Origin: Candidatus Kaiserbacteria bacterium
GTDB taxonomy: Bacteria; Patescibacteriota; Minisyncoccia; Phycocordibacterales; UBA2100
NCBI GenBank assembly: GCA_027066795.1
Contig: JAMONA010000013.1
Location: forward strand, 1 to 45,982
DNA: 45,982 nucleotides
Direction: 5' to 3'
The translations under genes and the position numbers were made by a program. Below, in pieces: positions 16,822 to 17,865 of this stretch (positions are counted from its first letter, which is position 1; each line of letters opens with the position of its first letter). The notes below the pieces were generated by a model. That model saw only the letters and a program-made list of their open reading frames with translations. It had not been told where the DNA came from and did no database searches.

Positions 16822-17865
16822 ATGAATACATGTATACATGGAATACAATCTAAATTGTGTGGTTACTGCAACGGCACAAAAAAAGTGGGGTCTAGAATAA
16901 ATGTCCCTAAAAATATACCGAGTAATGAGAGCTTAGTTAATGCAGCCGCAGCCCTAACCAAAAAAGAACTACCTGTAAATAACGCAATATCTATTCGACC
17001 AAAACGAGGACACCCAAGCCTTGTTCAATTAGGGCCGAATATAACTTTCATTCACTTCCTTGAGCGACCGGCAATATGGCTAATTGAGGAAGTGTTAGCA
17101 AAATGCCCAAATCTTAAGACCGTTCAATTCTTACCTAATATGTTAAGCAGCATATCTCCGGCCCAAAAAGAACTCCTCTCGAACAAAAAAGTAAACTTTA
17201 CTTCTGGACACTGGAAACCAGAAGCAGCATGGGCTGGGCCGCGTATCCTTAGTCCAGACTATCATGTTAAAAAAGAGTTCTTGATGGATCTAAGTGGAGA
17301 CCAACTTAAATTGTTCCAAGAACTTTTGGACCTCGGGTTTGATGAAGCTCTGTTGGCCTCAAGGTACTTTTGTTTAAAAGGAGAGGACTTTATAAGTCAA
17401 CGAGAGTGCTCCGAAAAGTTCGATCTAAACTTTAAAATAAAAGCAATTGGAGGGAGCTTGTTCATCAATGCAGTAATTTCTTATCTTGACCCCCACTTCA
17501 AAGTATCAAATGATACCAAACTAAAGATGGAGACTATGCGCAAGTCTGTGTTCAGAATACGGGAAATGTTGCAAAATAAAAACGAAATGGATAACTTATT
17601 ATCCGAACTGCAAATAACAAAACTCCCAGACAACCTGACACTCTCAAAAATAGAAAAATTTAGTTCTATTTGCAAAGCTTACAACTCTGGACAACTCTCG
17701 TTACTTAAGGAGAAGCGCCATGCTGAGATACTTACCCAACGCTGGGGTCTAAATAACGGTTGTTTTAAAACACTGGAAGCTGTAGGCGAACTTTTTAGTG
17801 TTACAAGAGAGCGCATAAGGCAAATCGAGGCAGAATCTTTAGATACACTGCGTATAATAGACTAG
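16822..17865 (+). CDS. protein with a C-terminal sigma-70 region-4 HTH; the N-terminal 290 aa are unrecognised (CxH..CxxC start)
   Basis: The C-terminus ...HAEILTQRWGLNNGCFKTLEAVGELFSVTRERIRQIEAESLDTLR closely matches region 4.2 of primary sigma factors. The N-terminus reads MNTCIHGIQSKLCGYCNG. Strong SD. Confidence 0.8.
   Translation: MNTCIHGIQSKLCGYCNGTKKVGSRINVPKNIPSNESLVNAAAALTKKELPVNNAISIRPKRGHPSLVQLGPNITFIHFLERPAIWLIEEVLAKCPNLKTVQFLPNMLSSISPAQKELLSNKKVNFTSGHWKPEAAWAGPRILSPDYHVKKEFLMDLSGDQLKLFQELLDLGFDEALLASRYFCLKGEDFISQRECSEKFDLNFKIKAIGGSLFINAVISYLDPHFKVSNDTKLKMETMRKSVFRIREMLQNKNEMDNLLSELQITKLPDNLTLSKIEKFSSICKAYNSGQLSLLKEKRHAEILTQRWGLNNGCFKTLEAVGELFSVTRERIRQIEAESLDTLRIID

What the first reader, a model, noticed from the sequence alone, without database searches (positions are those of the whole stretch)
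16822..17865. Cassette ORF has a near-textbook sigma-70 region-4 HTH but no recognisable regions 2/3, and begins with a Cys/His knuckle
The last ~55 aa (EKRHAEILTQRWGLNNGCFKTLEAVGELFSVTRERIRQIEAESLDTLR) match the region 4.2 pattern of primary sigma factors (...TLEEVG..F.VTRERIRQIEAKALRKLR) almost residue for residue.

The preceding ~290 aa contain nothing I can recognise as sigma region 1.2, 2 or 3. The protein starts with C-x-H-x7-C-x2-C (CIHGIQSKLCGYC). A second HTH-like stretch (LSGDQLKLFQELLDLGFDEALLASRYF) lies mid-protein.

A -35-reading and flap-binding module without a -10-reading module is not a normal sigma factor. It could be a sigma-4 mimic that competes for the beta-flap or -35 elements, or a new family of transcription factors that reuses sigma-4. 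Its presence on a repeat-flanked cassette raises the interest.
Basis: partly seen in the sequence, partly recalled or inferred. Interest (0 to 1): 0.66.

Follow-up and report, generated by a model that had tools for sequence, protein, structure and literature searches.

The report
Sigma-4 protein on a tiny mobile cassette
This gene encodes a protein that keeps only the promoter "-35-reading" end of a bacterial sigma factor, joined to unknown domains, and it is the only gene on a 1.3-kb DNA cassette that one strain has and a near-identical strain lacks.

Summary
ORF 16822-17865 (347 aa) ends in a genuine sigma-70 region 4 (Pfam E 1.5e-8; profile-profile against RpoD E 1.4e-15). No sequence or profile search found region 2 or 3. 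It starts with a conserved C-x-H-x6-C-x2-C knuckle.

It belongs to an uncharacterised family, about 280 clusters at 50% identity, seemingly from Patescibacteria. The architecture is Zn knuckle, a small alpha/beta domain weakly related to DUF1699_N, a degenerate sigma-4-like domain, a long helix, then sigma-4. The -35-contact and flap-pocket residues of sigma-4 are conserved.

The cassette is real. It is a 1,320-bp insertion bounded by a 38-nt exact repeat of the 3' end of a membrane-protein gene. A 99.8%-identical contig shows the empty site. In at least two other loci (L012, L020) a relative is again the only gene between direct repeats. In L012 the repeat is a tRNA-Ser 3' end. L014 gives moderate support.

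No recombinase domain or invariant catalytic residue was found. Most likely it is a non-sigma, sigma-4-type DNA-binding protein serving its own integrative cassette. Its function is untested. Rare relatives are fused to sigma regions 2-3 or to DnaA domain IV.

The parts
16565..16601 (.). Host bidirectional terminator hairpin (17-bp stem). It was the original terminator of the membrane-protein gene and is now separated from that gene by the insertion.
   Evidence: Terminator scan. The same hairpin directly follows the membrane gene's stop codon in the empty-site contig L007.
16604..16674 (-). Left repeat copy (attL-like), with the exact 38-nt core at 16626-16663. It is a relic of the membrane gene's original 3' end and reads ...AIVIQIISLWYLKCFK* on the minus strand.
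   Evidence: The part from the core leftward is identical to L007.
16693..16736 (.). Palindrome AAAATATAATTAAACTTGC/GCAAGTTTAATTGTCATTT with two inverted AAACTTGC motifs. It abuts the -35 of the cassette promoter. It could be a binding site or an insulating hairpin.
   Evidence: AAACTTGM occurs 4 times in the 46-kb window, and 3 of these are in the cassette arms.
16728..16755 (+). Cassette's own sigma-70-type promoter: TTGTCA, 16 nt, TG-extended TATATT (10 of 12 matches).
   Evidence: Relatives also have near-consensus promoters.
16805..16813 (+). Ribosome-binding site GGAAGGAGG, ending 8 nt before the ATG.
   Evidence: Read directly from the sequence.
16822..17865 (+). ORF of 347 aa, the only gene of the cassette.
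16831..16869 (+). Zn knuckle C4-x-H6-x6-C13-x2-C16.
   Evidence: C13 and C16 are invariant and C4 and H6 are at 91% in 70 relatives. pLDDT is 81-86 in the deep-alignment model.
16984..17211 (+). Alpha/beta domain (aa 55-130) with four parallel strands spaced about 24 aa apart. It is weakly related to archaeal DUF1699/DUF1699_N. H78, G81, W86, P105 and G129 are nearly invariant.
   Evidence: Foldseek found no significant PDB match. The best viral matches were LRR proteins at E 1.8e-3.
17290..17490 (+). Degenerate sigma-4-like helical domain (aa 157-223) with motif RYFCLxGE...SxxINAVLxYLD. The helix that aligns with the recognition helix of sigma-4 has lost its basic and polar DNA-reading residues.
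   Evidence: hhalign to the family's own sigma-4 at E 4e-5. Conservation data.
17509..17610 (+). Long single helix (aa 230-263), a linker or possible dimerisation element.
   Evidence: AlphaFold2 model, pLDDT 81-87.
17704..17856 (+). Sigma-70 region 4 (aa 295-345), with VTRERIRQIE identical to primary sigma factors.
17888..17923 (.). Cassette-borne bidirectional terminator hairpin (stem 17893-17918). It serves both the sigma-4 ORF and the rebuilt membrane gene. It starts with a third AAACTTG motif at 17888.
17924..17994 (-). Right repeat copy (attR-like), with the exact core at 17946-17983. It is continuous with the membrane gene. The cassette-derived part, 17924-17945, supplies a new C-terminal tail SLKF* and stop codon.
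   Evidence: All relatives of the membrane protein end in ...CFK or ...CLKK.
17927..18358 (-). Target gene: a 143-aa membrane protein with no Pfam match. Its last codons were replaced by the insertion.

Best explanation
The ORF encodes a protein that is not a sigma factor. It is a sequence-specific DNA-binding protein built around a sigma-factor region 4, and it is the single gene of a 1.32-kb integrative cassette.

The cassette entered the 3' end of a membrane-protein gene by recombination within a 38-nt identical segment. It brought its own promoter, a replacement gene tail and a terminator.

Proposed mechanism:
- The C-terminal sigma-4 keeps the residues that read a TTGACA-type hexamer.
- It binds TTGAC-like or CTTG-containing sites in the cassette's own arms and promoter.
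- There it regulates itself and/or marks the recombination sites for a recombinase supplied by the host or a helper element.
- The Zn knuckle, the alpha/beta domain and the degenerate sigma-4-like domain provide protein contacts.
- It cannot open promoters because it lacks sigma region 2.

Shown here: the domain make-up, the residue conservation, the insertion and its empty site, and similar cassettes around relatives.

Inferred only: DNA binding, the identity of the sites, and any role in integration.
For: Sigma-4 is significant, and no sequence or profile search found any other sigma region.

Conservation across 70 relatives, in sigma-70 numbering, which rests on my own alignment and recalled literature:
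- The -35-contact residues R584, E585, R586, R588 and Q589 are kept in 77-90%.
- R562, F563, G564, I565 and L598 are kept in more than 90%.
- The activator patch K593, R596, K597 and R599 is not kept.

Insertion:
- L007, from another sample, is 99.8% and 99.1% identical on the two sides and lacks exactly the 1,320 bp.
- More distant relatives have the membrane gene directly next to mraZ.
- Beyond the core, the cassette-borne copy is diverged but still homologous (MLVAI against MVVMAI, and a different tail). This looks att-like rather than like a target-site duplication.

Recurrence of flanking repeats, scored against shuffled sequence:
- L012: a 25/26-nt copy of the tRNA-Ser 3' end brackets only the family gene, score 47 against a null of 19±2.
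- L020: 167-nt repeats at 87% identity bracket only the family gene, score 231.
- L014: 26-nt repeats lie exactly at the ORF's start and stop.

Candidate arm sites:
- In L012 an exact 19-mer, CGGTTGACGCCAGGTTGCC, lies in both arms.
- In the window, 3 of the 4 AAACTTGM motifs lie in the 238 nt of cassette arms.

Each family gene has its own near-consensus promoter and no conserved neighbour.
Against: No experiment or DNA-binding prediction supports the proposed sites. The window motif was chosen after looking, and two of its three copies are one palindrome, which could simply be a hairpin.

Eight other loci show no significant flanking repeats. They are L001, L004, L005, L009, L010, L016, L017 and L018.

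No recombinase is encoded in the cassette. The larger ORFs of the window that I scanned are all housekeeping genes. The partner that would do the cutting and joining is therefore unknown.

Every cluster I looked up is a singleton, so there is no sign of recent spread.

Fusions to sigma regions 2-3 hint at a link to RNA polymerase rather than to recombination.
Confidence: 0.4

Rival explanations
1. Sigma-4 decoy or promoter occluder. The protein docks on the RNA polymerase beta-flap, or sits on host -35 elements, and competes with the primary sigma factor. It would be a mobile global regulator or host-takeover factor. Its cassette would be moved by unrelated means.
For: The flap-pocket and -35-reading residues are both conserved. 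The sigma-4 part is 54% identical to CPR RpoD at consensus level. About 7% of the relatives listed carry extra domains, and some of these are fused to sigma regions 2-3. By fusion logic, this links the module to the transcription machinery.
Against: It does not explain why the same family is repeatedly the sole gene between target-gene duplications. No binding to RNA polymerase was tested. The basic patch used by sigma-4 for activator contacts is lost.
Confidence: 0.25
2. The protein is itself a new kind of site-specific recombinase or integrase. It would insert its own 1.1-2.0-kb element into the 3' ends of tRNA and protein genes.
For: The cassettes carry a single gene and have att-like repeats at different targets in the window, L012, L020 and L014. 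L012 has arm repeats and extra core-like copies. The size (about 350 aa) and the Zn-finger plus HTH make-up resemble many transposases and integrases. That comparison rests on my own knowledge.
Against: No match to any recombinase or transposase family by Pfam, NCBIfam, PHROGs, PADLOC or PDB sequence searches.

Foldseek on the N-terminal model gave nothing below E 0.1 in the PDB. Retroviral integrase cores appear only at E 0.16-0.5.

No invariant nucleophile or acidic triad is present:
- Y147 is F in 11 of 70 sequences.
- Y182 and Y221 are each F in 2 of 70.
- There is no conserved D or E in the alpha/beta domain.

The clusters I looked up are singletons.
Confidence: 0.12
3. Half of a split sigma factor. 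The protein supplies region 4 and pairs with a separately encoded protein carrying regions 2-3 to form a working sigma.
For: P0185 (499 aa) has region 3, then the family module, then a single region 4. P0219, P0175 and P0204 have sigma-like N-termini. P0185 is a genuine single gene.
Against: No partner gene lies in the cassette or is conserved next to any relative. The N-terminal Zn knuckle replaces the sigma N-terminus rather than adding to it. The window contains no other sigma-like sequence.
Confidence: 0.08
4. An ordinary but divergent sigma-70-family factor whose regions 2 and 3 are too diverged to be recognised.
For: Foldseek of the full-length model aligns 270-356 columns to whole sigma-A chains at E 2e-5 to 1e-3.
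Against: Those alignments have TM-scores of 0.16-0.21 and rmsd of 16-25 Å. The N-terminal 156-aa model is alpha/beta, not the helical sigma-2 fold, and it has no sigma hit among its top 50 matches. Profile-profile comparisons find only region 4. None of 70 relatives hits r2 or r3.
Confidence: 0.02

Closest known systems
Region 4 of primary sigma-70-family factors (RpoD/SigA)
   Same: Clear sequence homology over about 55 aa. The motif VTRERIRQIE is identical. The -35-contact and flap-pocket residues are conserved.
   Different: No region 1.2, 2 or 3. It has a Zn knuckle, an alpha/beta domain and a second degenerate sigma-4-like domain instead. The basic activator-contact patch is lost. It is carried on a mobile cassette.
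Two-part sigma systems: Bacillus subtilis SigO(YvrI)/RsoA(YvrHa), and phage T4 gp55/gp33 (from my own knowledge, not tested here)
   Same: The sigma-4-type function sits on a polypeptide that lacks a working sigma-2. gp33 uses the beta-flap as its docking site.
   Different: Those systems have an adjacent or co-regulated partner that supplies region 2. No partner is seen here. gp33 does not read DNA. No sequence relation beyond sigma-4 was found.
MzaA, the sigma-70-family protein of the MZA anti-phage system (NCBIfam NF041931, PADLOC PDLC02203)
   Same: It is the best-scoring NCBIfam model for the C-terminus, at 53.7 bits and E 1.6e-14. Like this protein, it is a large non-canonical protein with a sigma-4 near its C-terminus.
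   Different: Only residues 289-344 match, against positions 648-702 of a 726-position model. The score is far below the 800-bit cut-off. No Mza partner genes are nearby.
Archaeal DUF1699 (PF08004) and DUF1699_N (PF28505)
   Same: Weak homology of the alpha/beta domain: E 1.8e-4 for this protein, and 27 of 70 relatives hit at E <= 0.01. Precomputed PF28505 hits are on record.
   Different: The score is below Pfam's gathering cut-off. DUF1699 itself has no known function, and a paper search found nothing relevant.
Small integrative elements that target 3' ends of tRNA or protein genes, including integrase-less cis-mobilisable elements (CIMEs) (from my own knowledge)
   Same: Direct repeats duplicate the target's 3' end. 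The element restores the gene end and a terminator. Strains differ by presence or absence of the element.
   Different: The element is only 1.1-2.0 kb with one gene, and that gene has no recognisable tyrosine, serine or DDE recombinase domain. The same non-recombinase family recurs in independent cassettes.

Membership tests
Sigma-70-family sigma factor | Region 2 (core binding and -10 recognition) | tested here: not met
   No Sigma70_r2 hit for the protein or for any of 70 relatives. hhalign against an RpoD profile aligns region 4 only. The N-terminal model is alpha/beta.
Sigma-70-family sigma factor | Region 4 (-35 recognition and flap binding) | tested here: met
   Pfam E 1.5e-8, above the cut-off. 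hhalign E 1.4e-15. Key residues are conserved.
Sigma-70-family sigma factor | Region 3 | tested here: not met
   No r3 hit. The middle helical domain matches sigma-4 rather than sigma-3. Only rare longer fusions such as P0185 and P0219 carry an r3.
DUF1699 / DUF1699_N | Score above Pfam's gathering threshold | tested here: inconclusive
   The score is 21.7 bits against a cut-off of 33.4 for PF08004. Twenty-seven of 70 relatives hit at E <= 0.01. PF28505 is absent from the local library, and its precomputed hit is marked weak for relatives but unmarked for this protein.
Leucine-rich-repeat-like beta/alpha solenoid | Repeated strand-helix units of about 24 residues and structural similarity to LRR proteins | tested here: inconclusive
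   Strands at 55-58, 76-79, 100-103 and 125-128. The best viral Foldseek hit is an LRR protein at E 1.8e-3. PDB hits are all above E 0.1 and are mixed with integrase cores.
Site-specific integrative element | Direct repeats at both ends that duplicate the target, plus a demonstrated empty site | tested here: met
   38-nt exact core within a 71-nt repeat. Empty site in L007. Related genomes are also empty.
Site-specific integrative element | Element-encoded recombinase (tyrosine, serine or DDE) | tested here: not met
   The only ORF has no such domain and no invariant catalytic residues.
Site-specific integrative element | Excised circular form or attP junction | tested here: inconclusive
   The predicted attP junction is absent from IMG/VR. 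Raw reads could not be searched.
Zinc knuckle / zinc finger | Four conserved Cys/His ligands with metal bound | tested here: inconclusive
   The ligands are conserved: C13 and C16 at 100%, C4 and H6 at 91%. Metal binding cannot be tested here.

The most novel reading that the evidence does not exclude
This family marks a previously unrecognised class of minimal mobile elements in Patescibacteria, 1.1-2.0 kb with one gene. Either the sigma-4-bearing protein is itself a new type of recombinase, or it is the targeting subunit that hijacks a host recombinase or RNA polymerase. In either case it would insert the element into the 3' ends of tRNA and protein genes while rebuilding the gene end.
Probability: 0.17. 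Interest if true: 0.9.

Novelty: new variant of a known kind. Interest (0 to 1): 0.62.

Why it matters
Stand-alone sigma-4 proteins that keep every -35-reading residue are rare. This one could show how a promoter-recognition module is reused outside a sigma factor.

The host group, Patescibacteria (CPR), has tiny genomes, few regulators and poorly known mobile elements.

One feature gives a concrete handle on gene flux in these bacteria. The family is repeatedly the only gene of very small cassettes that insert into gene 3' ends and rebuild them, yet it has no recognisable recombinase.

If the protein directs or performs integration, it would be a new recombination system. If it acts on RNA polymerase, it would be a mobile sigma competitor.

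Tried and rejected
**Searches that found nothing or failed**
- The second homologous-protein search, with the N-terminal alignment A6, returned no hit at all, not even the query. I treat this as a tool failure.
- The search for related loci with A6 failed because no stretch was conserved enough.
- The family was not found in IMG/VR by pattern.
- tblastn of the N-terminal 290 aa found nothing in phage or plasmid collections.
- PADLOC and PHROGs matched only sigma-4.
- Rfam found nothing in the cassette or in L020.
- Paper searches gave nothing useful for DUF1699, MzaA, "sigma factor-like helix-turn-helix", or Patescibacteria with sigma region 4 or with mobile elements.

**Leads that went nowhere**
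- Three short Logan contigs of about 1.3 kb, a possible sign of circular elements, have no terminal overlap and no flanking repeats.
- The tRNA genes next to the family gene in L001 and L018 have no partial duplicate on the other side.
- The repeat in L013 is AT-rich and was discarded.

**Ideas rejected**
- A serine recombinase, tyrosine recombinase or DDE fold for the alpha/beta domain was considered and rejected. Support was lacking in Foldseek and there are no invariant catalytic residues.
- A simple target-site duplication was considered less likely than att-type recombination. Repeat length varies from 25 to 167 nt between cassettes. In the window, the copies are homologous but diverged beyond the exact core.
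- The cassette's GC content (0.37) is not clearly foreign compared with host genes (0.418±0.031).
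Full report
**1. The observation**

The ORF at 16822-17865 (+) encodes 347 aa. It has a strong ribosome-binding site, GGAAGGAGG at 16805-16813. It has its own TG-extended sigma-70-type promoter at 16728-16755 and a hairpin terminator at 17893-17918.

Pfam finds Sigma70_r4 at residues 299-344, E 1.5e-8 and above the gathering score. 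The only other hit is a weak one to DUF1699 at residues 68-129. NCBIfam models for RpoD, RpoS, RpoH and MzaA all match the last 50 or so residues only.

The Cys/His motif is C4-x-H6-x6-C13-x2-C16.

**2. The family**

A word-indexed search of 5.8 billion proteins found only three full-length relatives, at 31-35% identity. An exhaustive HMMER search with the N-terminal 290-aa profile found more:
- 282 representatives of 50%-identity clusters at E <= 1e-3.
- 153 of these at E <= 1e-30.
- Nearly all are about 350 aa long.

In 70 aligned members, C13 and C16 are invariant. C4, H6, H78, G81, W86, P105, G129, W137, E167, Y182, Y221 and D223 are above 90%. The sigma-4 core is also conserved.

Sixty-four of 70 hit Sigma70_r4, 27 of 70 hit DUF1699 weakly, and none hits r2 or r3.

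The organisms appear to be Patescibacteria. The evidence is thin:
- Only one relative carries a source name: NCBI calls P0185 [quoted passage not shown].
- Several relatives sit on contigs or chromosomes of 0.8-0.9 Mb.

**3. Is it a hidden sigma factor?**

No.
- Profile-profile comparison of the family with an RpoD alignment matches region 4 only, E 1.4e-15 with 54% consensus identity.
- Sub-domain comparisons find nothing for the alpha/beta domain or the linker.
- A profile search of PDB sequences hits only sigma region 4.
- Foldseek of the full-length model (pLDDT 72.6) lists whole sigma-A chains at E 2e-5 to 1e-3. These have TM-scores of 0.16-0.21 and rmsd of 16-25 Å, so only the local helical parts match.
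- A deep-alignment model of residues 1-156 (pLDDT 84, and above 94 for residues 60-130) is a four-stranded parallel alpha/beta domain, not a sigma-2 helical bundle.
- That model has no PDB neighbour below E 0.1. Its best viral neighbours are LRR proteins at E 1.8e-3.

Residues 164-223 align to the family's own sigma-4 profile at E 4e-5, probability 70%. The motif RYFCLxGE stands where LRFGL stands in sigma-4. The helix that corresponds to the recognition helix reads SxxINAVLxYL and has lost its DNA-reading residues.

**4. The sigma-4 domain looks functional**

I mapped the domain onto E. coli sigma-70. The numbering and the residue roles come from my own knowledge of the literature. Conservation in the 70 relatives is as follows:

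| Residues (sigma-70 numbering) | Role | Conservation |
|---|---|---|
| R584, E585, R586, R588, Q589 | -35 contacts | 77-90% |
| R562, F563 (as F/Y/W), G564, I565 (as L/I), L598 | Flap pocket and domain core | more than 90% |
| K593, R596, K597, R599 | Activator-contact patch | not conserved |

The window protein has VTRERIRQIE exactly.

**5. The cassette is a real, recent insertion**

A 71-nt direct repeat at 85% identity, with a 38-nt exact core at 16626-16663 and 17946-17983, brackets 1,320 bp.

The right copy is the working 3' end of a 143-aa membrane-protein gene on the minus strand. The left copy is a relic reading ...IQIISLWYLKCFK*. It is followed by a strong terminator at 16565-16601.

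A 1.2-kb contig from another sample, L007, encodes an identical MraZ. It runs from the membrane gene straight into that terminator and then mraZ:
- L007 189-1207 equals window 16660-15642 at 99.8%.
- L007 8-228 equals window 18161-17941 at 99.1%.
- The two matches overlap by the repeat.

An independent 72.9-kb assembly carries the filled site.

Four loci with 62-69%-identical membrane proteins have that gene directly next to mraZ. All homologues end in ...CFK or ...CLKK, not ...CFSLKF. The empty state is therefore ancestral, and the tail SLKF* comes from the cassette.

Beyond the exact core, the cassette-borne copy is still homologous but diverged. It reads ATG CTT GTA GCC ATA against ATG GTG GTT ATG GCA ATA, and it has a different tail. 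This is the pattern of attP x attB recombination, or of single-crossover integration of a circle carrying a diverged homologous arm. It is not the pattern of a transposase target-site duplication.

The window has no integrase among its larger ORFs that I scanned, which are all housekeeping.

**6. The same pattern recurs around relatives**

I aligned the 700 nt upstream against the 900 nt downstream of each family gene and compared the score with shuffles.

| Locus | Score (null) | Repeat | What it brackets |
|---|---|---|---|
| Window | 87 (24±3.6) | 71 nt, 38-nt exact core | family gene only, 1,320 bp |
| L020 | 231 (22±2.2) | 167 nt at 87%, at 7543-7709 and 9566-9732 | family gene only, 2,023 bp; here the variant with a C-terminal DnaA domain IV |
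| L012 | 47 (19±1.9) | 25 of 26 nt, at 101-126 and 1830-1855 | family gene only, 1,729 bp |
| L014 | 32 (22.7±2.2) | 26 nt at 85% | repeats sit exactly at the ORF's ATG and stop |

Details:
- L020: the repeat contains a fragment that looks like a tRNA 3' end, but no full tRNA was found there.
- L012: the last 23 nt of an intact tRNA-Ser(gga) plus 3 more nt are repeated 1,729 nt away. Each copy is followed by its own terminator.
- L014: both copies encode VExxGPEKP*, the end of the upstream deaminase-like gene.
- Eight other loci show no significant repeat.

L012 also has an exact 19-mer, CGGTTGACGCCAGGTTGCC, in both arms. It holds two GGTTGMC half-sites 11 nt apart. L012 has extra copies of the core sequence inside the left arm as well.

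In the window, AAACTTGM occurs four times in 46 kb. Three of these are in the 238 nt of cassette arms: the palindrome at 16693-16736 and the start of the terminator hairpin at 17888. These are candidate sites of the TTGAC type that a sigma-4 helix could read. I chose the window motif after seeing the data.

**7. Other clues**

Family genes are solitary. Where the upstream region was read, most have their own near-consensus promoter (TTGACA, TTGTCA or TTGCCA, about 17 nt, then TATAAT-like). L014 is the exception: its start codon overlaps the stop of the upstream gene. Their neighbours differ from locus to locus.

About 7% of the listed relatives are longer:
- P0219, P0175, P0185 and P0204 have a sigma-like N-terminus in place of the Zn knuckle. 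Region 3 is detected in P0185, P0219 and P0175, and region 2 only in P0219.
- P0158, P0178 and P0191 add a DnaA domain IV at the C-terminus.

P0185 is a bona fide single gene.

No relative was found in phage, plasmid or IMG/VR collections.

**8. Interpretation**

What is shown:
- The protein has a sigma-4 with no detectable sigma-2 or sigma-3, and it belongs to a new multi-domain family.
- It is the sole gene of an integrative cassette with a documented empty site.
- The cassette association recurs.

What is inferred: the protein binds -35-like sites and serves its cassette, by autoregulation and/or by organising the att sites for a recombinase supplied in trans.

The absence of any catalytic signature argues against the protein being the enzyme itself. 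The recurrence of single-gene cassettes keeps that reading alive, at about 12% in my estimate.

The sigma fusions and the conserved flap pocket keep an RNA-polymerase-directed role plausible, at about 25% in my estimate.

An ordinary divergent sigma factor is effectively excluded.

**9. Verdict**

This is a real and uncommon feature. It is an uncharacterised family that joins a near-canonical sigma-4 to unknown domains, carried on miniature integrative cassettes in Patescibacteria. It combines known kinds of parts in a new way. Its function is untested.

Noticed in passing
window 20597-20626 and 20654-20683: The last 21 nt of tRNA-Ala (20543-20617) plus 9 nt downstream are repeated in inverted orientation 27 nt further on (30-nt arms, 83% complementary). 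This could be a long hairpin terminator built on the tRNA end, or a relic of an old integration site.
   Followed up: no
window 20813-20872 and 27475-27534: A 60-nt inverted repeat, 85% complementary, lies in two intergenic regions 6.6 kb apart. It flanks the ddl, murC and murB genes and one further large ORF. Each arm contains TTGACA and a DnaA-box-like TGTGGACAA.
   Followed up: no
window 16500-16551: Upstream of mraZ there is a perfect DnaA-box consensus, TTATCCACA, at 16543-16551. There are also three GTGG[GT] boxes on the minus strand at 10-nt spacing (16503-16529), which look like MraZ operator repeats. Both features are also present in the empty-site contig L007.
   Followed up: partly
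window 17927-18358 (-); L022, L024: The target gene encodes a 143-aa membrane protein with no Pfam match. It has an invariant motif ALQMCG.GGPLCGA.FG and always lies just upstream of mraZ in this lineage.
   Followed up: partly
L017 about 1390-1697: Downstream of one family member there is an ORF that I read by eye as ParB-N-like (…GLDELAASIKAKGLLQPITIRP…). It was not run against any profile library. That copy may sit on a plasmid-like replicon.
   Followed up: no
L018 9500-9817; L001 3845-4365: Two relatives are followed by 300-500 nt of non-coding sequence. The L018 stretch is GC-rich and looks structured. In each locus the stretch ends at a tRNA gene (tRNA-Ser in L018; tRNA-Asp and tRNA-Met in L001) whose 3' end faces the family gene. 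No partial tRNA duplicate was found on the other side.
   Followed up: partly
L020 7908-9443: The called gene for P0158 (480 aa) starts at 8001. The ORF actually extends upstream to an ATG at 7908, and the extra residues supply the family's Zn knuckle (MDNKFCPHGKHVKFCGEC). Some relatives that seem to lack the knuckle may simply have mis-called starts.
   Followed up: partly
P0008: A 372-aa protein found in metagenome assemblies combines Sigma70_r4 with a HARE-HTH domain (PF05066). It is another non-canonical protein that carries a sigma-4.
   Followed up: no
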